Below are positions 18,274-28,684 of a DNA stretch of 64,000 nucleotides, one piece after another. A program made the position numbers and the translations under genes. Source of the DNA: Dehalococcoidia bacterium. GTDB lineage: Bacteria > Chloroflexota > Dehalococcoidia > UBA2979. The notes under the pieces were generated by a model. That model did no database searches and was not told where the DNA came from. It saw only the letters and a list, made by a program, of their open reading frames with translations. Location of the stretch: positions 3,456,001 through 3,520,000 of the forward strand of contig OZ253555.1 of the NCBI GenBank assembly GCA_965262725.1, read 5' to 3'. Each line of letters starts with the position of its first letter. The stretch's first letter is position 1.

Positions 18274-19161
18274 TCAGTCGAACTCCAGCGGCAGCGACGG
18301 ATCGGCGGCGTACTCCGACATCGAGGCGTCATAGACCGCGACGTCCTCGTAGCCCAGGAGCGAGAGGACGAAGGCGTCGTTGGACGCGGCGATGCCGCCC
18401 CCGCAGTACGTGACCACGCGCTGCGTGTGGTGCGCCCCCGCCTCTTCGAAGAGCGGCGCCAGCTCCTCCGCCGGGCGGTAGAGGCCGGTCTGGGGGTCGG
18501 TCAGCTCCATCGCCGGCACGTTGGTCGCGCGGGGGATGTGTCCGGCACGCCCGTAGGCTCGGCCGCCGTCGGCGCCCGAGTGCTGCTCCCGCCCGAGGGC
18601 GTTGATGAGGCAACTCCCGCCCCCGCCGCCCGACTCGACGAACGCGCGGACCTCGGCCAGGTCGGCGAAGCGGGCCGGGTCGGCGGTCGGCGTGAAGGTC
18701 GTGGGCGCGTACGCCGCCTCCCCCGTCGAGACGGGCCGGCCCTCGGCCGTCCAGCGACGCCAGCCGCCGTCGAGGACGGCCGCGCCCTCGCAGCCCATCG
18801 AGCGGAACATCCACCACAGCCTCGCCGCCCACGCCGAGCCCGAGCGGTCGTAGAGGACCAAGGTCGACGACTCCGAGATGCCGTGCCGTCCGGCCGCCGC
18901 TGCGAACGCCCCGGCCGAGGGCATCATGAAGCGCAGGCGGTGGTCGTTGTCTGAGAAGTCGGCCTGCAGGTCGAGGAAGGCCGCCCCGGGGATGTGTCCC
19001 GACTCATACTCCGCCCGTCCCGACTCGACGCGGTAGCCACCACCCTCCTGGGGACGCAGGAAGACGGTCGTCTCGAAGACGCACACGTCGTCGTCCTCCA
19101 CGTGCTCCGCCAGCCACTCGGTCGACACGAGGAACTCTGGATGCGCGAATGCCATGGTCAA
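18274..19161 (-). CDS. Sulfurtransferase (two-domain rhodanese, SseA/MST-like)
   Basis: LVSTEWL, GHIPGA, LDGG, active site YCGGGIAA, YDASMSEY. Confidence 0.92.
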   Translation of the reverse strand: MTMAFAHPEFLVSTEWLAEHVEDDDVCVFETTVFLRPQEGGGYRVESGRAEYESGHIPGAAFLDLQADFSDNDHRLRFMMPSAGAFAAAAGRHGISESSTLVLYDRSGSAWAARLWWMFRSMGCEGAAVLDGGWRRWTAEGRPVSTGEAAYAPTTFTPTADPARFADLAEVRAFVESGGGGGSCLINALGREQHSGADGGRAYGRAGHIPRATNVPAMELTDPQTGLYRPAEELAPLFEEAGAHHTQRVVTYCGGGIAASNDAFVLSLLGYEDVAVYDASMSEYAADPSLPLEFD

Positions 19162-20396
19162 CTCCAGCCGGCGCGGGCCTGCGGTGAGAAGGCCGGTTCG
19201 CGGTCTAGTATCCCCATCCCGCGGACCGTCCGCGATCGCTTTCGGCCGGAGCGGGAGTCTACTCGCTCGCCGCCGCCTCGCGCAGCCGCCCGAGATCGAT
19301 GCTCTGCATCGTCAGCAGCACCTCCATGACGCGATCGGGCGCGATCGCCAGCAGCTAATGGGAGCCGAACCAGAGGACCAGAGCGATCTGGGAGGATGGT
19401 TCCGGACCCGCCAGCCGGAGAGCATTACCAGTAGCTGAGGCGCTTGCGACCTCCAAGGGGAGACCGTGCCCCGGCTGGTTCGTTCGGGCCTGCGATGCAC
19501 TGATGGGGTGTCGTGCCGGTAGAGCACCGTGCCATTAGCTCGTTGCGGAGCAGCCCGGCGGGGCCAGCCAGCCAGGTGGGACAGGAAGGGAGCACGGGTT
19601 GACGGTGTACGTGGGGGACGACTGGTCCGAGGACCATCACGACGTCCACGTCATGAACGAGGAGGGCGAGAGCCTCGAGGCGAAGCGACTCCCCGAGGGA
19701 GCGGAGGGCATGACCGCCCTCCACGCCCTGCTCGCCGAACACGCACAGGACGCCGGCCAGGTCGTGGTCGGCATCGAGACCGACCGCGGCCCGTGGGTCG
19801 CAGCGCTCATCGGCGCGGGCTACCGGGTCTACGCCATCAACCCGCGGGTGGCGTCCCTCTACCGCGAGCGCCACCAGGTCGGCGGCGGGAAGTCGGACCG
19901 GGGCGATGCGCGCATGCTCGCCAACCTCGTCCGCACCGACAGCCACAACCACCGGCCGGTCGCGGGCGACAGCGCCCTCGCCTCCGCCGTGCAGGTGCGT
20001 GCCCGCGCCCAGCAGCAGCTGGTCTGGAATCGCACCCGCGAGAGCAACCGACTGCGCAGCGCGCTGCTGCAGTACTTCCCGGCCACACTCCAGGCCTTCC
20101 CCGACCTCACGCATCCCGATGCGCTCTCGGTGCTAGCCGTCGCCCCGGACCCGCTCGCAGCGGCGAAGCTGACGCGGGCGCAGATCCGTGCGGCGCTCAG
20201 GCGCGGGGGCCGCAAGCGCAACCTGGACACGCGGACGGAGGAGATCCACGAGAAGCTCCGCCTCCGCACGCTCCACGTCGCGCCCGTCCTCACCGAGGCG
20301 TTCGCCGACAGCGTGCTCGTCCAGGTTGCCCAGCTCCAGGAGATCAACCGGCAGCTCGAGGGACTGGAGTCGAAGCTGGCCCCGTCTACCGACTAA

Positions 20397-21836
20397 CTAC
20401 ACCGTCGCCAAACCTGTGATCGGCGGTCCGGGAGCTCCGGTTCCATCCGCTTCGTGGCCTCCGAGCGGCACCAGCTGGTAGCCGAGCTTCCTGGCCCTGC
20501 GTCTCGCGTTGCGGAGGGCTCTCTCGTGGTGCTGCGCCTCGTAGTACTCGGCTCCGGCGTCCGTGTACCCGTGTCCGTACTTCAGGCTCGAGTAGATGAT
20601 CCTCGCCAGCTTGTGAGCCGTCGCAGTGATGGCCTTGGCTGGCCCCAGCTGCGCCTTCTTCCTCCGCAGGAACGCCCCCAGGGCGCTGTCGGAGCGGTGA
20701 AGACCGAAGGCGGCAAGACGCAGGGCCGCTGCTGCCCGGTTCGCCGACGGCGTGGTCCGGGAGCTGATGACCTTGCCTCCGGTGACGCGGTTGTTCGGGC
20801 TCAGGCCCAACCACGATGCGAAGTGCTTCGGGGTTTCCCAGCGGCTCATGTCCACTCCGACCTCGCTGACGACCTTCAGCGCCGTATGGGCGTCCACGCC
20901 ATCGATGCGCGTCAGGTCCACCCCCGTCATCCGGTAGAGATGGCTCCGCACGTCGAACGCCGGCGCATTCTTGGCGCGCTTCGACCGCTTGGGCTTCCCG
21001 AGAGGCGGCCGGGGGTCGCCGGAATCGTCCCACTCCTCCAGTAGCGCCTCGAGCTTCCCGTCGCACTCGGCGATCTTGCCCTGGTACACCCGGTAGAGAT
21101 CCCGGGCCTGCGCCAGTTCGAAGAGGTGCTCCTCCCGCCAGTGCCCCTCCAGTGACCGGGCGATCATCGACGTGTCCGCCCGGATCCTCGGGTCACGCAG
21201 CTGCGCCAGCTTCACGGGGTCACGCTCGCCACCAATGACGGCATCAATGATGGCCAGTCCCGTCGCGCCGGTGATGTCGCTGATGACGTGCTGGAGCTTG
21301 ACGTTCATCTGGGTCAGGGCCTTCTGCATGTGCTGAACGTGTCTGGCCGCGTCCTCGACCAGCAGGGCTCGCTGCCGCATGTAGCTGCGCAGTCGGCGGA
21401 TATCCTCATCGGGACGGAAGGCTCCGGAGAGCAGCCCGTAGGTGTGAAGCTGCTGGATCCACTGGCTGTCCAGCACATCCGTCTTGCGGCCGGGCGCATT
21501 CTTGATGCCCCTCGGGTTCACCAACAGCACCTCGAATCCCCGCTCCTCCAGCACTCCGAAGAGCGGGATCCAGTACACCCCCGTCGACTCCAGCGCCACG
21601 GTCTCGATGCCGCACTCGGCCAACCAGTCCGCCAGGCGGTACAGGTCGCCCGTGAAAGCTGCGAACTCCCGCACCGGCGTATCGGAACGGTCCTCGGGGA
21701 CTGCCACGAAGTGGCTCTCGGCGCCCACATCGATCCCGGCCGCGTTCAGGTTCACCCGGGACAGCGCCGCGGGCAGTACCGGCGGATCGCCCCGCGTTCC
21801 GTCGGCGCGCCGGGCACTCTCGCCTCGTGTCTCCAT
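20397..21836 (-). CDS. IS110 (DEDD) recombinase, copy 1
   Basis: AGIDVG, ALESTGVYW, RKTDVLD, FASWLGLSP..RVTGG. Confidence 0.95.
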   Translation of the reverse strand: METRGESARRADGTRGDPPVLPAALSRVNLNAAGIDVGAESHFVAVPEDRSDTPVREFAAFTGDLYRLADWLAECGIETVALESTGVYWIPLFGVLEERGFEVLLVNPRGIKNAPGRKTDVLDSQWIQQLHTYGLLSGAFRPDEDIRRLRSYMRQRALLVEDAARHVQHMQKALTQMNVKLQHVISDITGATGLAIIDAVIGGERDPVKLAQLRDPRIRADTSMIARSLEGHWREEHLFELAQARDLYRVYQGKIAECDGKLEALLEEWDDSGDPRPPLGKPKRSKRAKNAPAFDVRSHLYRMTGVDLTRIDGVDAHTALKVVSEVGVDMSRWETPKHFASWLGLSPNNRVTGGKVISSRTTPSANRAAAALRLAAFGLHRSDSALGAFLRRKKAQLGPAKAITATAHKLARIIYSSLKYGHGYTDAGAEYYEAQHHERALRNARRRARKLGYQLVPLGGHEADGTGAPGPPITGLATV

Positions 21837-21849
21837 CCTCTCGCCCCCT

Positions 21850-22030
21850 CCCCCACAGCGTGGGCGTGTGACCGGAGGGAGCCACGACCAGACCGACACT
21901 CTACCGAACGGGATCGCCCCGACGGGACGTCACCAGTGATGCAGTCGCAGGGCTCCCGGACCATGCTTTTGAACGGGCAGATCGCACCAACGATGTACCG
22001 GCCTCGGCCCGGTCATCACGCCTCGCCGCG
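21850..22030 (-). ncRNA. Predicted bridge RNA in the IS110 left end (second copy 1715 bp downstream)
   Basis: Two parallel motifs: CTACCGA-ACGGG (21901) matches the donor junction and CTTTTGA-ACGGG (21966) matches the target site; boundaries approximate. Confidence 0.65.
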
Positions 22031-22100
22031 ACTATACATCGCCGCTCGGCCCACCCCAGTTAGTGGCTTGCTGCACCGCCCGGCCGCCGGGGGTGGGGTG

Positions 22101-23817
22101 CTACCGACTAACTACACCGTCGCCAAACCTGTGATCGGCGGTCCGGGAGCTCCGGTTCCATCCGCTTCGTGGCCTCCGAGCGGCACCAGCTGGTAGCCGA
22201 GCTTCCTGGCCCTGCGTCTCGCGTTGCGGAGGGCTCTCTCGTGGTGCTGCGCCTCGTAGTACTCGGCTCCGGCGTCCGTGTACCCGTGTCCGTACTTCAG
22301 GCTCGAGTAGATGATCCTCGCCAGCTTGTGAGCCGTCGCAGTGATGGCCTTGGCTGGCCCCAGCTGCGCCTTCTTCCTCCGCAGGAACGCCCCCAGGGCG
22401 CTGTCGGAGCGGTGAAGACCGAAGGCGGCAAGACGCAGGGCCGCTGCTGCCCGGTTCGCCGACGGCGTGGTCCGGGAGCTGATGACCTTGCCTCCGGTGA
22501 CGCGGTTGTTCGGGCTCAGGCCCAACCACGATGCGAAGTGCTTCGGGGTTTCCCAGCGGCTCATGTCCACTCCGACCTCGCTGACGACCTTCAGCGCCGT
22601 ATGGGCGTCCACGCCATCGATGCGCGTCAGGTCCACCCCCGTCATCCGGTAGAGATGGCTCCGCACGTCGAACGCCGGCGCATTCTTGGCGCGCTTCGAC
22701 CGCTTGGGCTTCCCGAGAGGCGGCCGGGGGTCGCCGGAATCGTCCCACTCCTCCAGTAGCGCCTCGAGCTTCCCGTCGCACTCGGCGATCTTGCCCTGGT
22801 ACACCCGGTAGAGATCCCGGGCCTGCGCCAGTTCGAAGAGGTGCTCCTCCCGCCAGTGCCCCTCCAGTGACCGGGCGATCATCGACGTGTCCGCCCGGAT
22901 CCTCGGGTCACGCAGCTGCGCCAGCTTCACGGGGTCACGCTCGCCACCAATGACGGCATCAATGATGGCCAGTCCCGTCGCGCCGGTGATGTCGCTGATG
23001 ACGTGCTGGAGCTTGACGTTCATCTGGGTCAGGGCCTTCTGCATGTGCTGAACGTGTCTGGCCGCGTCCTCGACCAGCAGGGCTCGCTGCCGCATGTAGC
23101 TGCGCAGTCGGCGGATATCCTCATCGGGACGGAAGGCTCCGGAGAGCAGCCCGTAGGTGTGAAGCTGCTGGATCCACTGGCTGTCCAGCACATCCGTCTT
23201 GCGGCCGGGCGCATTCTTGATGCCCCTCGGGTTCACCAACAGCACCTCGAATCCCCGCTCCTCCAGCACTCCGAAGAGCGGGATCCAGTACACCCCCGTC
23301 GACTCCAGCGCCACGGTCTCGATGCCGCACTCGGCCAACCAGTCCGCCAGGCGGTACAGGTCGCCCGTGAAAGCTGCGAACTCCCGCACCGGCGTATCGG
23401 AACGGTCCTCGGGGACTGCCACGAAGTGGCTCTCGGCGCCCACATCGATCCCGGCCGCGTTCAGGTTCACCCGGGACAGCGCCGCGGGCAGTACCGGCGG
23501 ATCGCCCCGCGTTCCGTCGGCGCGCCGGGCACTCTCGCCTCGTGTCTCCATCCTCTCGCCCCCTCCCCCACAGCGTGGGCGTGTGACCGGAGGGAGCCAC
23601 GACCAGACCGACACTCTACCGAACGGGATCGCCCCGACGGGACGTCACCAGTGATGCAGTCGCAGGGCTCCCGGACCATGCTTTTGAACGGGCAGATCGC
23701 ACCAACGATGTACCGGCCTCGGCCCGGTCATCACGCCTCGCCGCGACTATACATCGCCGCTCGGCCCACCCCAGTTAGTGGCTTGCTGCACCGCCCGGCC
23801 GCCGGGGGTGGGGTGCT
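22101..23817 (-). mobile_element. IS110-family element, copy 2 of the tandem
   Basis: Same sequence and identical ORF translations as copy 1. Confidence 0.93.
22112..23551 (-). CDS. IS110 (DEDD) recombinase, copy 2
   Basis: Translation identical to copy 1. Confidence 0.95.
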   Translation of the reverse strand: METRGESARRADGTRGDPPVLPAALSRVNLNAAGIDVGAESHFVAVPEDRSDTPVREFAAFTGDLYRLADWLAECGIETVALESTGVYWIPLFGVLEERGFEVLLVNPRGIKNAPGRKTDVLDSQWIQQLHTYGLLSGAFRPDEDIRRLRSYMRQRALLVEDAARHVQHMQKALTQMNVKLQHVISDITGATGLAIIDAVIGGERDPVKLAQLRDPRIRADTSMIARSLEGHWREEHLFELAQARDLYRVYQGKIAECDGKLEALLEEWDDSGDPRPPLGKPKRSKRAKNAPAFDVRSHLYRMTGVDLTRIDGVDAHTALKVVSEVGVDMSRWETPKHFASWLGLSPNNRVTGGKVISSRTTPSANRAAAALRLAAFGLHRSDSALGAFLRRKKAQLGPAKAITATAHKLARIIYSSLKYGHGYTDAGAEYYEAQHHERALRNARRRARKLGYQLVPLGGHEADGTGAPGPPITGLATV

Positions 23818-24574
23818 TTTGAGGAGCACCCGGACGCCGCGATTTACCTGTCGATGCCGGGCCTGGGGCCCGTGCTCGGCGCCCGGGTGCTGGGCGAGTT
23901 CGGGGATGACCCCGAACGCTACGAGTCCGCGAAGTCTCGCAGGAACTACGCGGGCACGTCGCCGCTCACCATAGCATCGGGGCGGAAGCGGACGGTCACC
24001 GCGCGCCACGTGCGGAACCGGCGCCTCTACGACGCGGTACACATGTGGGCGTTCTGCTCGCTCCAGGCGAGTCCCGGGTGCCGGGCGTACTACCAGCAGC
24101 GGCAAGCGCTGGGCGACGGGCACCACCAGGCGCTGCGCGCCCTCGCCAACCGCCTGGTCGCGTTCCTGCACGGCTGCCTGAGCACGCGTCGGCTCTACGA
24201 CGAGGAGGCGGCCTGGGGCAGCCTGAAGACTGAGCCTGCCGAGCTCGCCGCCTGACGGAGGTCGTTGAGCGCCTCGGCGGGCCCGGACTCATCCAGGGTC
24301 TGGAGCTCGTTGAGGGCGCAACACGGCGCGACGAGTCCCTGCACACCCCGATCACGGACGCCGGCAGCGGTCGGTGAGCCACCGCATGTCCGCGAAGCTG
24401 AGACGCAGCTCACGCCGGCCAGGACCATCCTCTCCGGCGGCGTCGACATCGGAACACCGCCGCGATCACGGCTCTAGCACGGCGCTCCGGCTGCTCACGA
24501 TCTCCTTCGCCTCGCGCACCCGACGCCCCGATCCGCTGCCCGGGTGGGGGCGCCCCTTGCGCGTTACGGACATG

Positions 24575-24920
24575 GGGTGTCTCCCCGGGCACCGCGGAGA
24601 CGACCTGCCAGGAAACGCCGAACTCCTCCTCGAGCCCGCCGCACTGGCCGGGGGCGCCGCCCTCAAAGAGCCGCTTCCGGAAGTGGTCGATCTCCTCGTG
24701 CGTCGTGCAGGTGACGACGAAGGAGATCGCCGGCGTGAACTCACCCATCGGACCACCGTCGGGGGCCTCGAAGCGATGTCCGTCAACCTCCAGCCCCGGC
24801 ACCGCGCCGACCCCGGCGGAGCACCACGGGATCTCCGAGCCGGAGAGGATGCTCGATCCGGGGAAGACGCCGGCGCAGAACTCGGCGGCAGCGGTCCGCG
24901 TCCGGGCATCAGGGCGTCCG
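24575..24920 (-). pseudogene. Degenerate VOC / 3-demethylubiquinone-9 3-methyltransferase-like gene; C-terminus probably at 19258-19345
   Basis: LEVDGHRFEAPDGGP..FTPAISFVVTC..EEIDHF..GQCG..FGVSWQVV; tail DRVMEVLLTMQSIDLGRLREAAASE* lies on the far side of the IS stack. Confidence 0.65.
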
Positions 24921-25048
24921 CCGCGGCGCCCGCACTCTCCGTCGCTGCCCCTCGACTCGATGGGTGCGGGCGCTCCGCTGCGGGCGGCCGCTATGGTGGC
25001 GACGCGGGCGGATGTCACATCCTGTCGGACGGCCGTCGGAGGCGGGCG

Positions 25049-28000
25049 ATGAGTACGGTGGGCGTCGAGGAGCGCACGCGGGAGTTGGGGCTCGCCCTGC
25101 TCGCGGAGGCGGCGCGCTACCGGCCGGGCCCGGCGGAGCGCATCCAGGACTGGCTGCTGGGCCTGACCGCCGCCAATGAGCGCTTCCGCGCCCGCCTGCT
25201 TCGTTACCTCGACGTACTCGCCTCGGTCGACCACGACACCAGCGGCCTGGAGGCGAAGCGGCTCGCGGCCGAGTACTTCGGCGACGACTTCCCTGAGCTG
25301 CCCCGCGGACTGCGCTGGCTGCTCCGGCTCGCCCGCGACAAACACGTGCCGGCGCGCCTCATGGGCGAGACGTCGCGTCGCGGGGCCGAGCTGTTCGCAC
25401 GGCGCTTCATCATGCCTCCCGGCGCGGAGACGGTGGCCGAGACGGTACGGCAGCTGCGCGATCACGGCCGCCTCCCCTCGTTCGATCTGCTCGGGGAGGC
25501 CGTGCTCAGCGAGCGCGAGGCCGAGGCCTACCTCGAGCGCTACCTCGCACTCGTCCGGCAGCTCGCCGATGACGCCGCGGCCGGCGAGATCACGGCGGGT
25601 GGCGTGTTCGCGCTCCAGGTCTCGCTCAAGATCTCCTCACTCACCGCGCACTTCAGCCCCGTCGACCCCGACGGCACGATCGCGCGCGTTCGTCCCCCGC
25701 TCGAGGCGATCGTCGAGGCGGCGGAGACTGCGGGCGTCGGCGTCACGGTCGACATGGAGCAGTTCGAGTACCGCGACCTCACGTGGGAGATGTTCACCCG
25801 CACGTTCGCGCGCGGCGAGCGCTTCGGCGGCTGGCCGGGCGCGGGGATCGTGTTGCAGGCCTACCTGCGCGAGGCCGACGCCCACGCGGATGCCCTCGTC
25901 GCGTTCGCCCGGGTGCGCGGCGTCCCGTTCCAGGTGCGGCTGGTCAAGGGCGCGTACTGGGACTACGAGAACATCGTCGCCCGCGCGGCAGGCTGGAGGC
26001 CGCCGGTCTTCACTCGCAAGGCCGCCACGGACGCGGCGTTCGAGCGCGTGCTCGCGCGACTGGTGAGAGCGCACCCGGCGCTCCACGTGGCGGTCGGAAG
26101 CCACAACGCGCGCGCCCACGCGCTGGCCGAGGCGCTCGCGGAGGCCTCGGGTCTCCCGCAGGGGGCGGTGGAACACCAGACGCTCTTCCGCACGGCTGAG
26201 GGCACGAGCCGCGCACTGGCGGGGCTCGGCTGGGCGGCCCGCGACTACGTGCCGTCGGGTGAGCTGCTGCCGGGCATGGCCTACCTGGTGCGGCGCGTGC
26301 TCGAGAACTCCTCGCAGGCCGGCATCCTCCTGCAGGGACGCACCGGCGCACCGCCCGAGGAGCTGCTACGCGCCCCGCCCGCGCTCGGGCCGGCTGCGCA
26401 GCCCCCGCCCGCGGCGTCGGGAGGACTCAAGCGGACGCCGGAGGCGCGCTGGTTCGACCCGGACTTCCGCGATGCGTTCGAGGCGGCGCTCGCCTCGACT
26501 CGCGCGCGCTGGGGAGAGCGCGTCGCGCTGCGCGCCGGCGGGGTTGCGCTGCCCGCCGCCGAGACGCGCGCGGTGCAGAGTCCCTCGCACCCCGAGGCAG
26601 AGCCGGTGGGCGTCGTCGAGTTCGCGGCCGCCGAGAGCGCCGGGCGCGCGATCGCCGTCGCCGCCTCGGGGCTCCGCGGCTGGGCGGCCAGGCCGGCGGC
26701 GGAACGGGCGTCGGTGCTGCGTCGGGCGGCCGATCTGCTCCGGGTGCGAGGCCACGAGTTTGCCGCGTGGATCGTGCACGAGGGCGGCCGCGACCGCGCC
26801 GGCGCGTGGACCGAGGTCGAGGAGGCGATCGATTTTCTGCACTACTACGCATCGCAGGCGGAGGCACTGTTCGGGGCGTTTGGTGACCGCATCGCGCCCC
26901 GGGGCGTGGTGGCCGTGATCCCGCCGTGGAACTTCCCCCTCGCGATCCCCAGCGGAATGACGGCGGCGGCTCTCGCCTGCGGGAACGCGGTCATCCTCAA
27001 GCCCGCCGAGCAGACGCCGCTGCTCGGCGGGCGCCTCGCCGCGCTGCTGCACGAGGCCGGCGTGCCCGACGACGCGCTGATCTCTCTACCCGGCCGCGGC
27101 GAGACGGTCGGTGCCGCGCTGGCGGAGAGCTCCGATGTCTCCATGGTGGCGTTCACGGGGTCGCGCGCCGTCGGCACGCTGCTCCACGAGATCGTCGCGC
27201 GCGTCGAGCCCGCCGGCGGGGCGGCGACGAAGACGCTCGTCGCGGAGATGGGGGGCAAGAACTCGGTGCTCGTCTTCCCGGACGCCGACCCCGACGAGGT
27301 CGTGGACGGCGTCATCCGCTCCGCCTTCGGGCACGCCAACCAGAAGTGCTCGGCGGCCTCGCTCATCCTCGTGGCGGAGCCCGCCTACGAGCCGATCCGC
27401 GACCGTCTGGTCGAGGCCGCGCGCAGCCTCCGCGCCGGGAGGGCCGACGCGCCCGGGACGCAGATCAATCCGGTCATCGATCGCGACGCCCGTGAGCGGC
27501 TCCTGCGCGACGCCGAGACCGCCCGCGCCGAAGGGGAGGTGCTCCTCGATCGCTTCGAGGAGCCTGCCGCGGTCGGCGGGCAGCTGGCGCTCGGTCCGCT
27601 CGTGATCGAGCTCCCGGCCTGGCGAGCGCGCGAAGCGCGCACGACGACCGAGGAGCTCTTCGGCCCGATCCTCGCGCTGATCCCGTTCGCGACCGAGGAG
27701 GAAGCCTACGCGGTCGCGAACGGGACGGACTACGGGCTCACCGCCGGCGTCTTCTCGCGCAGCCCCGCGACCATCGAGCGCGCCGCCCGGGCGCTCGAGG
27801 CCGGCAACATTTACGCCAACCGCGCCATCACGGCGGCGCGCGTCGGCGTCGAGCCGTTCGGTGGAATGAAGATGTCCGGCACCGGCCCGAAAGCCGGCGG
27901 AGCCGACTATCTCTGGGCGTTCGTGCACCGCACCGACGCGCCCGCAGGCGAGTGCGACGCTCCGCAAGAGGCTTCATCGTCCGGCGGGGAGACACGGCGG

Positions 28001-28684
28001 CCCGCCCTGCCGTCGGGCGGCTGGGACGAGGAGCTCGACGCGCGCATCGACGTCGTCGAGCGCGCCGCGGTGCTGCTCGCCGAAGACGGTCGCAGCGAGG
28101 ACGCCTCCGCGCTGCTGACGGCGGCGCAGGCCGCCCGCCGCGAGCTCGGACGCCCGCAGCCGACGATCCCGGTCGCCGGCCAGCGCACCGAGTTGCGATA
28201 CGACACCCCCCGCGGTATCGGCCTGCTCCACGCGGCGGGGCGAGATGCGGCGTGGTGGCTCGTCGCGCCGCTGCTCGCGGGGAACGCTCTCGCGCTCTTC
28301 TCCTCGCCGGCGCTCCCACCGGTCGTGGACGCGCTCCTCCGCGCGGGCATGGCCCCGGAGGCCGTGCGCCCCGGCGGGGGTGTCGACTCCATGCTCCGGG
28401 CGGCCCGCCGTCCCGAGGTCGCCTTCGCCGCGTCGGACGGCGGCGCCGGGTTCGCACGAGCGCTCAATAGAGAGCTGGGCGCGACCGCTCCCGGGCAGCG
28501 CTCGCTGAAGGCGCTGCTCTCCCGCCTCGACGGTCCCCAGGCGGGTGAGCCGGGCTTCGTGCAGCGCTTCGCGTGGCCGAGGGTCGTCGCGGTGCGCACG
28601 TTGCGCCACGGGGCCGACCTGGGGCTGGGGTCGGGTCGACACGCCGGGGGCGGCGCGGGCAGCCGGTGGGCGCCGGGCGGCTAG
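25049..28684 (+). CDS. putA: Bifunctional proline dehydrogenase / P5C dehydrogenase
   Basis: VDME, RLVKGAYW, YLVRRVLEN (PRODH); PWNFP, FTGS, EMGGKN, QKCSA, EELFGP (GSALDH). Confidence 0.95.
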   Translation: MSTVGVEERTRELGLALLAEAARYRPGPAERIQDWLLGLTAANERFRARLLRYLDVLASVDHDTSGLEAKRLAAEYFGDDFPELPRGLRWLLRLARDKHVPARLMGETSRRGAELFARRFIMPPGAETVAETVRQLRDHGRLPSFDLLGEAVLSEREAEAYLERYLALVRQLADDAAAGEITAGGVFALQVSLKISSLTAHFSPVDPDGTIARVRPPLEAIVEAAETAGVGVTVDMEQFEYRDLTWEMFTRTFARGERFGGWPGAGIVLQAYLREADAHADALVAFARVRGVPFQVRLVKGAYWDYENIVARAAGWRPPVFTRKAATDAAFERVLARLVRAHPALHVAVGSHNARAHALAEALAEASGLPQGAVEHQTLFRTAEGTSRALAGLGWAARDYVPSGELLPGMAYLVRRVLENSSQAGILLQGRTGAPPEELLRAPPALGPAAQPPPAASGGLKRTPEARWFDPDFRDAFEAALASTRARWGERVALRAGGVALPAAETRAVQSPSHPEAEPVGVVEFAAAESAGRAIAVAASGLRGWAARPAAERASVLRRAADLLRVRGHEFAAWIVHEGGRDRAGAWTEVEEAIDFLHYYASQAEALFGAFGDRIAPRGVVAVIPPWNFPLAIPSGMTAAALACGNAVILKPAEQTPLLGGRLAALLHEAGVPDDALISLPGRGETVGAALAESSDVSMVAFTGSRAVGTLLHEIVARVEPAGGAATKTLVAEMGGKNSVLVFPDADPDEVVDGVIRSAFGHANQKCSAASLILVAEPAYEPIRDRLVEAARSLRAGRADAPGTQINPVIDRDARERLLRDAETARAEGEVLLDRFEEPAAVGGQLALGPLVIELPAWRAREARTTTEELFGPILALIPFATEEEAYAVANGTDYGLTAGVFSRSPATIERAARALEAGNIYANRAITAARVGVEPFGGMKMSGTGPKAGGADYLWAFVHRTDAPAGECDAPQEASSSGGETRRPALPSGGWDEELDARIDVVERAAVLLAEDGRSEDASALLTAAQAARRELGRPQPTIPVAGQRTELRYDTPRGIGLLHAAGRDAAWWLVAPLLAGNALALFSSPALPPVVDALLRAGMAPEAVRPGGGVDSMLRAARRPEVAFAASDGGAGFARALNRELGATAPGQRSLKALLSRLDGPQAGEPGFVQRFAWPRVVAVRTLRHGADLGLGSGRHAGGGAGSRWAPGG

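What the first reader, a model, noticed from the sequence alone, without database searches (positions are those of the whole stretch)
20386..23817. Exact head-to-tail IS110 dimer that fixes the circle junction in the chromosome
Seen: two identical 1715-bp units bounded by three CT cores, with the middle join GGGGTG-CT-ACCGAC. On the minus strand the join forms TTGGCG-N17-TAGCAC (22126-22098), whose -10 spans the core and exists only at this join. Established: IS110 circle junctions create a promoter for the bridge RNA and recombinase. Inference: copy 1 may be constitutively expressed and the dimer carries a ready donor site. The -10 is weak, and an assembler could build this dimer from circle-derived reads.
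Basis: partly seen in the sequence, partly recalled or inferred. Interest (0 to 1): 0.75.

Follow-up and report, generated by a model that had tools for sequence, protein, structure and literature searches.

The report
Exact tandem dimer of an IS110 element
Two identical copies of a small RNA-guided jumping gene sit head to tail inside another jumping gene, preserving the joint its circular form would have; the pair looks real, but this kind of tandem is known and the proposed new promoter at the joint is not supported.

Summary
Window 20386-22100 and 22101-23815 are identical (0 of 1715 differ), bounded by three CT cores. Each unit is a 1713-bp IS110-family element on the minus strand: a 264-nt left end encoding a bridge RNA, a 479-aa recombinase and a 9-nt right end. 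The dimer splits the recombinase gene of another IS110-family element.

The genome has two more single copies in the same target. All 3 target copies with T after the core are occupied. Both copies with C there are empty.

The middle join is a complete donor site (LD-core-RD). A TAnnnT hexamer 65-70 nt inside the left end is conserved in 31 of 31 relatives and is the likelier bridge-RNA promoter.

The dimer is probably real. The assembly is one contig that resolves long repeats, and public-run contigs break exactly at both element ends in three runs. No spanning read was seen.

It most likely formed when the element's own circle re-inserted at its own boundary, or by exchange between sister chromosomes. 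Tandem IS110 insertions are already in print. Interest is moderate.

The parts
19352..20385 (+). Left part of the host element, another IS110-family IS. It includes the N-terminal fragment of its recombinase ORF (19599-20396).
   Evidence: BLAST against other host-IS copies in the genome starts at query position 353 of 19000-20387. Pfam DEDD_Tnp_IS110 E 2.7e-35. An intact 408-aa homologue lies in L096.
20386..20387 (.). Core dinucleotide CT (AG in element orientation), outer boundary at the right end of copy A.
20388..22100 (-). IS copy A (1713 bp), the copy downstream of the join in element orientation.
   Evidence: Identical to copy B.
20397..21836 (-). Recombinase gene of copy A (479 aa plus stop; ATG preceded by GGAGG). 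The stop codon lies 9 nt from the element end.
   Evidence: Aligns to IS621 transposase 8wt6_A, E 7.3e-6.
21837..22100 (-). Left end of copy A with the bridge RNA. It holds the target guide UUCAAAAG (21966-21973), donor guide UUCGGUAG (21901-21908), conserved TATAGT (22031-22036), subterminal repeat ACTAACT (22058-22064) and GC hairpin (22079-22091).
22101..22102 (.). Middle core CT. Together with its flanks it forms a complete donor site (right end, core, left end), the same sequence a circle junction would have.
   Evidence: The 240-bp junction-centred probe matches in full only here among 99 genomes of the order.
22098..22126 (-). Judged to be a chance-level match.
22103..23815 (-). IS copy B (1713 bp), the upstream copy in element orientation. 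Recombinase gene 22112-23551; left end with bridge RNA 23552-23815.
23816..23817 (.). Core dinucleotide CT, outer boundary at the left end of copy B.
23818..24585 (+). Right part of the host IS110-family element, with the C-terminal fragment of its recombinase ORF (23854-24255).
   Evidence: BLAST to other host copies over 1-768 of 23818-24800. Pfam Transposase_20 E 2.7e-13.

Best explanation
This is a genuine homotypic tandem insertion of an IS110-group bridge-RNA element, sitting at its normal, highly specific target inside another IS110-family recombinase gene.

Most likely formation route (inferred): a circle copied out of this very copy re-inserted at the copy's own boundary. That boundary is a hybrid site matching half of the target guide set and half of the donor guide set. 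An equivalent route is the excision reaction running between sister chromosomes. Either route gives flank, IS, right end-core-left end, IS, flank.

The middle join is a full donor site fixed in the chromosome. It can be used again by the recombinase and bridge RNA. One unit can also be released as a circle, by the recombinase or by homologous recombination, without loss of the resident copy.

Expression of the downstream copy is more likely driven by a conserved promoter inside the left end, plus read-through from the upstream recombinase gene, than by a promoter created at the join. The dimer is probably a transient by-product, favoured here because every full-match target in the genome is already occupied, and not an evolved device.

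Shown: the anatomy, the guides, the target specificity and the occupancy. Inferred: the formation route, reuse of the join and the source of expression.
For: - The two units are identical (0 of 1713 differ), whereas the two other genomic copies differ from them at 3 and 4 positions. This points to a local origin of the second unit.
- All three insertion loci share the target GCC[C/G]CGT|CT|TTTGAGGAGC in copies of the host IS.
- The two uninterrupted host copies carry CGTCTCTTGAGG, a change at the base next to the core that pairs with the target guide. So 3 of 3 matching targets are full and 2 of 2 variant targets are empty.
- The target guide was identified by covariation. It agrees with the left target plus core at 6 or more of 8 positions in 50 of 63 related elements, against about 11% of shuffled pairings. 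Mutual information peaks at LT -4..-1.
- The element's own target guide UUCAAAAG matches its own right end GTCGGTAG at only 4 of 8 positions. The dimer is therefore not a programmed insertion.
- The donor guide UUCGGUAG matches the right end plus core.
- Preprints report that half-matched sites suffice for IS621 insertion and that excision leaves the donor copy in place (10.64898/2026.08.31.748434, abstract and section 8; 10.1101/2025.10.25.684509, abstract).
- Reality of the dimer, assembly side: the assembly is one 3.67-Mb contig. It resolves arrays of 330-bp repeats over about 14 kb, five host-IS copies and another exact 863-bp tandem duplication.
- Reality of the dimer, read side: in runs X1, X2 and X6, whole contigs start exactly at 20386 and end exactly at 22102 or 23817. 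This needs a branch immediately outside CT on both sides, as the join would give. In X5, contigs run through both boundaries.
- Promoter: TAnnnT at left-end positions +65..+70 is present in 31 of 31 aligned relatives, just upstream of the conserved bridge-RNA core.
- No terminator-like site lies on the minus strand between the recombinase stop of copy B and the left end of copy A.
Against: - No listed record spans the whole dimer. The runs were available only as contigs, so 1 versus 2 copies between the flanks was never seen directly.
- The contig breaks at CT could also come from circles, or from insertions with other flanks in these mixed samples.
- Depth ratios are rough (IS to unique flank about 3.0-4.0 in X1 and 3.5-4.1 in X2). 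The tool warns that they are not copy numbers. The T:C split at 20856 in X1 (53.9:17) does not fit the assembly's 2:2.
- No other exact homotypic dimer was found: 0 of 78 related loci, and only G000 among the 5 of 99 genomes of the order that hold this lineage.
- The right-side guides (RTG, RDG) were not identified, so the half-match argument rests on the left-side guides only.
- The internal TAnnnT has no recognisable -35 and no canonical TGn extension. No transcript data exist.
Confidence: 0.6

Rival explanations
1. Assembly artefact. The chromosome holds one copy here. Reads from excised circles, or a minority variant, led the assembler to run through the unit twice.
For: - The two units are exactly identical, as a loop traversed twice would be.
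- No listed record spans the dimer.
- The dimer is unique among 78 related loci and 99 genomes of the order.
- Circles of IS110 elements exist and can be abundant (10.64898/2026.08.14.744561, passages).
Against: - The single 3.67-Mb contig resolves long tandem arrays and multi-copy 1.8-kb repeats. This implies reads much longer than 3.4 kb, and such reads would contradict a false dimer.
- A 1.7-kb circle cannot yield reads that link flank, unit, unit and flank.
- The rough summed IS depth in X2 is about 3.5-4.1 times the unique flank. That fits four copies better than three, but the tool says depth is not a copy number.
Confidence: 0.2
2. The dimer is real and the join creates a sigma-70 promoter (TTGGCG-N17-TAGCAC) that makes the bridge RNA and recombinase of copy A constitutive.
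For: - The hexamers are at the stated coordinates with a 17-nt spacer.
- IS621 reconstitutes a promoter across its right end-left end junction, with the -35 in the right end (PMC11208160 and PMC13626964, passages).
- In the sister subclade, the right end has GTGAC[AG] 18 nt upstream of a left end that starts CAnnnT. A junction promoter may exist there.
Against: - TAGCAC matches only 3 of 6 and lacks T at position 6. The standard scan finds 0 sites.
- Equal-quality matches are fewer than in shuffles, and one lies at the outer boundary.
- The hexamer is made of a programmable donor base, the core and the first three left-end bases. It is not TAnnnT in relatives.
- In this subclade the left end starts CACCCC, CAACGC or CAACTC, so the possible junction -10 of the sister subclade is lost.
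- The guides lie 128-200 nt from the join, further than expected if transcription began at the join.
Confidence: 0.15
3. The dimer is real but was made by host homologous recombination. A free circle crossed over with the resident copy anywhere in the 1.7 kb (Campbell-type integration). The element's recombinase played no part at the boundary.
For: - The product would be sequence-identical to what is seen.
- 1713 bp of perfect homology is an ample substrate.
Against: - It cannot explain the head-to-tail stacks of 80-87% identical relatives joined through the same 2-bp core in related genomes. Those show that this clade's recombinase does act at resident boundaries.
- A circle from copy C or D would have left 3-4 differences between the units, so the circle must still have come from this copy.
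Confidence: 0.2

Closest known systems
IS621 and other IS110-group bridge-RNA elements (Durrant 2024, PMC11208160; Hiraizumi 2024, PMC11208158)
   Same: - DEDD RuvC-like domain plus Tnp domain, with the four acidic residues aligned.
- Long 5' non-coding left end encoding a structured RNA, with a guide equal to left target plus core and another equal to left donor plus core.
- 2-bp core, strict target choice and no long terminal inverted repeats.
   Different: - The core is AG in element orientation, not CT.
- The recombinase is 479 aa, against 326.
- The residue aligned with catalytic S241 is Thr.
- A 7-bp subterminal inverted repeat is present.
- The guide that equals the target top strand lies on the 3' side of its loop in the predicted fold.
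- No junction promoter is recognisable.
- The right-side guides were not found.
[quoted passage not shown]
   Same: [quoted passage not shown] It argues that IS110 lacks target immunity.
   Different: [quoted passage not shown] Here the internal boundary is an intact LD-core-RD pair between two identical units. Its figures and supplements could not be seen, so exact dimers of this kind may be among its cases.
IS117, the Streptomyces coelicolor 'minicircle' (IS110 family)
   Same: Tandem insertions of an IS110-family element with a circular form were studied in 1994. Only the title of Smokvina et al., Mol Microbiol 12:459, was seen, in the reference list of PMC2194683.
   Different: The paper itself was not read, so its proposed origin of the tandems is unknown to me. 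IS117 is 2.5 kb and belongs to another lineage.
(IS30)2 and similar tandem dimers of copy-out-paste-in elements (PMC9333248, abstract)
   Same: A tandem dimer carries the same abutted-end junction as the minicircle, and this junction is the reactive site for later transposition.
   Different: IS30 uses a DDE transposase and inverted-repeat ends with a spacer. Here the junction is read by a guide RNA, and recombination is conservative and site-specific.
ISPpu9 of Pseudomonas putida (PMC12288879, passages)
   Same: [quoted passage not shown] It makes several circular forms.
   Different: It targets REP sequences and carries an extra sRNA module. No exact homodimer is described in the passages read.

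Membership tests
IS110 family, IS110 group (bridge-RNA elements) | N-terminal DEDD RuvC-like domain with four acidic catalytic residues | tested here: met
   PF01548 E 3.1e-22. GIDVG, ESTG and KTDVLD align with IS621 D11, E60, D102 and D105 (residue roles from PMC11208158 passages).
IS110 family, IS110 group (bridge-RNA elements) | C-terminal Tnp domain with the catalytic serine followed by glycine (IS621 S241-G242) | tested here: inconclusive
   PF02371 E 7.4e-12. The aligned residues are Thr-Gly (RVTGGK). In the 78 related loci the motif reads TGG[KR] 64 times and SGGK 16 times. The T-bearing elements are evidently mobile (4 near-identical copies at precise sites). Whether Thr is the nucleophile was not tested.
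IS110 family, IS110 group (bridge-RNA elements) | Site-specific insertion with a 2-bp core at both boundaries and no long terminal inverted repeats | tested here: met
   The same target and a CT core occur at 3 of 3 loci. An empty site with the exact predicted sequence is seen as a joint in run X5.
IS110 family, IS110 group (bridge-RNA elements) | Non-coding RNA upstream of the recombinase with guides for target and donor that covary with the DNA | tested here: met
   Met for the left guides only.
- The left end is 264 nt.
- The consensus fold has 43 pairs, 12 of them with compensatory changes.
- LTG versus LT agrees at 6 or more of 8 positions in 50 of 63 elements, against about 11% of shuffled pairings.
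- LDG plus a conserved motif locates the right end at the expected distance in 46 of 63 elements.
- RTG and RDG were not identified.
IS110 family, IS110 group (bridge-RNA elements) | Promoter reconstituted across the right end-left end junction | tested here: not met
   0 sites in the standard scan. The loosened match is at or below chance. The -10 is not conserved. This is a sequence test only; no transcript data exist.
IS110 family, IS110 group (bridge-RNA elements) | Free circular intermediate | not testable with these tools
   Contig breaks at CT in X1, X2 and X6 fit junction-bearing molecules but cannot separate a circle from a dimer.
IS1111 group of the IS110 family | Subterminal inverted repeats, and the non-coding (seekRNA) region downstream of the recombinase gene | tested here: not met
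   A 7-bp subterminal repeat, AGTTAGT/ACTAACT, is present and covaries in relatives. However, only 9 nt follow the stop codon, and the RNA lies upstream. Group definitions are from the abstract of PMC11187229.
Reactive tandem IS dimers, (IS)2 type | Two complete copies abutted so that the minicircle junction is present in the replicon | tested here: met
Reactive tandem IS dimers, (IS)2 type | High instability and high transposition activity of the junction | not testable with these tools
   Rarity only hints at it: 0 of 78 related loci, and 1 of the 5 genomes with this lineage.

The most novel reading that the evidence does not exclude
Head-to-tail stacking may be a regular part of this clade's life style and not an accident. 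In related genomes, an element's target guide often equals the donor guide of the element just upstream. These elements would then use each other's right ends, or circle junctions, as landing pads and build trains joined through the 2-bp core.

The homodimer in this window would be the unprogrammed, half-match form of the same reaction. The result is a chromosomal donor site from which circles can be issued without loss of the resident copy.
Probability: 0.3. Interest if true: 0.6.

Novelty: new member of a known kind. Interest (0 to 1): 0.4.

Why it matters
- Bridge recombinases are being developed as genome editors, so their behaviour at their own boundaries matters. A natural, exact dimer with an intact donor site shows that a resident copy does not protect its own boundary from a second insertion.
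- It gives a concrete substrate on which to test the recently proposed half-match and copy-out models.
- The genome also offers a clean natural specificity experiment. One base next to the core separates 3 occupied targets from 2 empty ones.
- This active clade has threonine where IS621 has its catalytic serine.

Tried and rejected
- Reads: only assembled contigs were available. No listed piece bridges 22101 with both flanks, and 408 pieces were not shown. So 1 versus 2 copies could not be read directly. No RNA holder was listed.
- Junction 30-mer: 0 hits in genome contigs and in metagenome contigs. A 28-mer of the element end alone also gave 0 hits in metagenome contigs. The element itself is therefore not in that collection and the blank says nothing.
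- Rfam: no bridge-RNA family matched 19000-25000. The only hit was Ms_AS-4 in the host IS.
- A single-sequence fold of the left end was no more stable than shuffles (z = 0.52). Structure came only from the alignment.
- The search for right-side guides by mutual information over 43 elements gave no clear diagonal. My attempts to read them by eye were inconsistent between the window, G003 and L017.
- I first read TGTATAGT as an extended -10. The TG is adjacent to the hexamer, not in TGn register, so I dropped that claim.
- Near-identical neighbours in L081 and L087 are separated by 819 and 389 bp. They are not abutted dimers.
- Tandem duplication by slippage on the 2-bp CT was considered and rejected. 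It would have to hit both element ends exactly by chance.
- Earlier notes of this scan: nothing near this place.
- Literature:
  - Searches for IS110 with dimer, tandem and circle junction, for nested or inserted-into-another-IS and for S241T found no description of an exact IS110 homodimer with intact junction, of an IS110 targeting another IS110 recombinase gene, or of a Thr variant.
  - These searches cover only the held library.
  - Supplements were closed.


Full report
**Observation**

Window 20386-22100 and 22101-23815 are identical over 1715 bp with 0 mismatches. The repeat does not extend leftwards and extends only 2 bp (CT) rightwards. The layout is: flank ...CCCCGT, CT, a 1713-bp unit (ACCGAC...GGGGTG), CT, the same unit, CT, flank TTTGAGG.... 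A tandem repeat of this length and precision is not a chance feature.

**What the unit is**

Each unit carries, on the minus strand, an ORF with Pfam DEDD_Tnp_IS110 (E 3.1e-22) and Transposase_20 (E 7.4e-12). It aligns to the IS621 recombinase 8wt6_A (E 7.3e-6), with the four acidic residues in place.

The likely start is an ATG preceded by GGAGG, which gives 479 aa. The stop codon is 9 nt from the element end, and 264 nt of non-coding left end precede the gene. This is the layout of the IS110 group, with the RNA upstream, and not of the IS1111 group (abstract of PMC11187229). In element orientation the core is AG, as reported for ISPpu9 (PMC12288879 passage).

**Bridge RNA**

I fetched 78 related loci, mostly from records titled Dehalococcoidia MAGs, at 55-90% protein identity. 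I aligned their left ends.

- A segment CCCG-N6-AG-CAUGGUC equals the left target plus core. It agrees at 6 or more of 8 positions in 50 of 63 elements, against about 11% of shuffled pairings. Mutual information peaks at LT -4..-1. In the window this guide is UUCAAAAG, against the flank CTCAAAAG.
- The same-genus relative G003 (90% nt identity) has UACGAAAG against the flank GACGAAAG.
- A second segment, CCCG-UU-N4-AG, equals the right end plus core (window UUCGGUAG against AGTCGGT-AG). Used as a probe, it locates the right end at the expected distance in 46 of 63 elements.
- A consensus fold of 18 sequences gives 43 pairs, 12 of them with compensatory changes.
- The right-side guides were not found.

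**Context**

The dimer splits the recombinase gene of a different IS110-family element, the host IS (about 19352-20385 and 23818-24585, plus strand). An intact copy of that gene encodes 408 aa.

The genome is one contig of 3,674,403 bp and holds four copies of the unit: the two here and two single copies with 3 and 4 differences. All three loci are the same site in host-IS copies. The two uninterrupted host copies read CGTCTCTTGAGG where the occupied ones imply CGTCTTTTGAGG. That is a change of the base next to the core on the side read by the target guide. So 3 of 3 matching targets are occupied and 2 of 2 variant targets are empty. An empty site with the exact predicted sequence exists in run X5 (joint 20385 to 23816).

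**Is the dimer real?**

Only assembled contigs of public runs were available. No listed piece spans the dimer. Three indirect lines favour reality.

1. The assembly resolves about 14 kb of 330-bp repeats, five host-IS copies and another exact 863-bp tandem duplication. This implies reads much longer than 3.4 kb.
2. In X1, X2 and X6, whole contigs begin exactly at 20386 and end exactly at 22102 or 23817.
   - With the three known flanks alone, the graph would branch 3 nt further left and about 30 nt further right.
   - A branch immediately outside CT on both sides is what the join adds.
   - In X5, contigs pass through both boundaries (20358-20694 and 23278-23845), which shows a monomer without the join.
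3. The rough summed depth of the unit over the unique flank is about 3.0-4.0 (X1) and 3.5-4.1 (X2). The tool states that such depths are not copy numbers, and the T:C split at 20856 in X1 (53.9:17) does not fit the assembly.

Circles could also produce the branch. I put the probability that the dimer is real at about 0.75-0.8.

**How rare is it?**

- A 240-bp probe centred on the join matches in full only in G000. The four other genomes of 99 in the order that hold this lineage match only one half at a time.
- None of the 78 related loci has abutted copies of 95% identity or more.
- The join and the element end are absent from the two large collections scanned, which is uninformative because the element itself is absent there.

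**Head-to-tail stacks of diverged relatives are common**

- Of 63 elements, 22 (in 20 of 55 loci) have a left flank that looks like a right end of the clade.
- In the 44-element table, 8 are followed directly by another left end and 11 are preceded directly by another right end, always through the 2-bp core.
- In several, the downstream element's target guide equals the upstream element's right end in all 7 informative positions (L037, L041, L044, L048, L050, L051, L053). In others it does not (L040, L052, L058, L059, L070).
- The recombinases of this clade therefore do act at resident boundaries, sometimes by programmed match and sometimes by partial match.

**Formation (inferred)**

The window element's target guide matches its own right end at only 4 of 8 positions, so the homodimer is not programmed. 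A resident copy's boundaries are hybrids (LT-core-RD and LD-core-RT), each matching half of each guide set.

Preprints report the following:

- For IS621, one matched half-site on the partner suffices when the other substrate is a full donor.
- LD-only, RD-only and LD+RD sites are used in vivo.
- Excision leaves the donor copy in place.

These come from 10.64898/2026.08.31.748434 (abstract and section 8) and 10.1101/2025.10.25.684509 (abstract).

A circle copied from this copy and re-inserted at its own boundary gives exactly this structure. So does the excision reaction run between sister chromosomes. Both routes also explain why the two units are identical while copies C and D differ. With all full targets occupied, such half-matched sites are what remains. 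Homologous recombination of a circle with the resident copy gives the same product and cannot be excluded, but it does not explain the diverged stacks.

**Consequences**

The join is a complete LD-core-RD site. Reuse as a donor, or release of one unit as a circle, follows from the known reactions but was not tested.

The promoter claim does not hold up on sequence:

- TTGGCG-N17-TAGCAC scores 4 of 6 plus 3 of 6 and lacks T at position 6.
- The standard scan finds no site.
- Equal matches number 2 in the region, one of them at the outer boundary (TAGACG), against 6.0 +/- 2.4 in shuffles.
- In relatives the hexamer varies with the programmable donor base.

In contrast, TAnnnT at left-end positions +65..+70 (TATAGT; 22031-22036 and 23746-23751) is present in 31 of 31 aligned relatives. 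It lies just upstream of the conserved RNA core. It has no clear -35.

The recombinase gene of copy B ends 9 nt before the join with no terminator-like site on that strand. Read-through into the bridge RNA of copy A is therefore expected. For IS621, read-through suffices for excision (PMC13626964 passages).

**Comparison and novelty**

- Tandem insertions of the IS110-family element IS117 were studied in 1994. Only the title was seen.
[quoted passage not shown] Its figures and supplements were not visible to me.
- The IS30 dimer is the classical analogue (abstract of PMC9333248).

This is a new, clean instance of a known kind. Its intact junction between identical units may be uncommon.

Noticed in passing
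window 19352-24585; G000:C1 about 124321-127868, 3421304-3424201, 678313-680119, 1914547-1916366: The element is a parasite of another IS110-family element. All 3 insertion loci lie at one site in the linker between the two domains of the host recombinase gene. The 2 uninterrupted host copies differ by one base next to the core (F to L in the host protein).
   Followed up: partly
L034, L037, L038, L040, L041, L044, L048, L050-L053, L058, L059, L070: Related elements that are 80-87% identical lie head to tail through the 2-bp core. In about half of the cases the downstream element's target guide equals the upstream element's right end, which looks like programmed stacking.
   Followed up: partly
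window 20397-21836 and 22112-23551 (motif RVTGGK); L017-L094: The residue aligned with the catalytic Ser241 of IS621 is Thr in this element. In the 78 related loci the motif instances read TGG[KR] 64 times and SGGK 16 times.
   Followed up: partly
window 22058-22064 and 20392-20398 (also 23773-23779 and 22107-22113); 22079-22091: A 7-bp subterminal inverted repeat (AGTTAGT/ACTAACT) covaries in relatives (GTTACT with AGTAAC). A GC hairpin near the left-end start shows compensatory changes. The function of either is unknown.
   Followed up: partly
window 23853-23934 (-): Rfam Ms_AS-4 hit (55.8 bits, gathering score 50), antisense to the conserved C-terminal domain of the host-IS recombinase gene. 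It is probably a match to conserved coding sequence.
   Followed up: no
G000:C1:549499-551223 (L095 1700-3424): A second exact head-to-tail duplication (863 bp, 100% identical) lies next to an ORF with group II intron reverse transcriptase and maturase domains. Copies of a 562-bp part, 87% identical, lie elsewhere in the genome.
   Followed up: partly
L037 about 2650-2693; L048 about 1560-1601: A left-end fragment is followed directly by a right end. This looks like an internally deleted mini-element sitting just upstream of a full element.
   Followed up: no
window 24374-28684 (+): A 1436-aa open frame begins inside the right end of the host IS. The real gene start is probably further downstream. 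Not examined.
   Followed up: no
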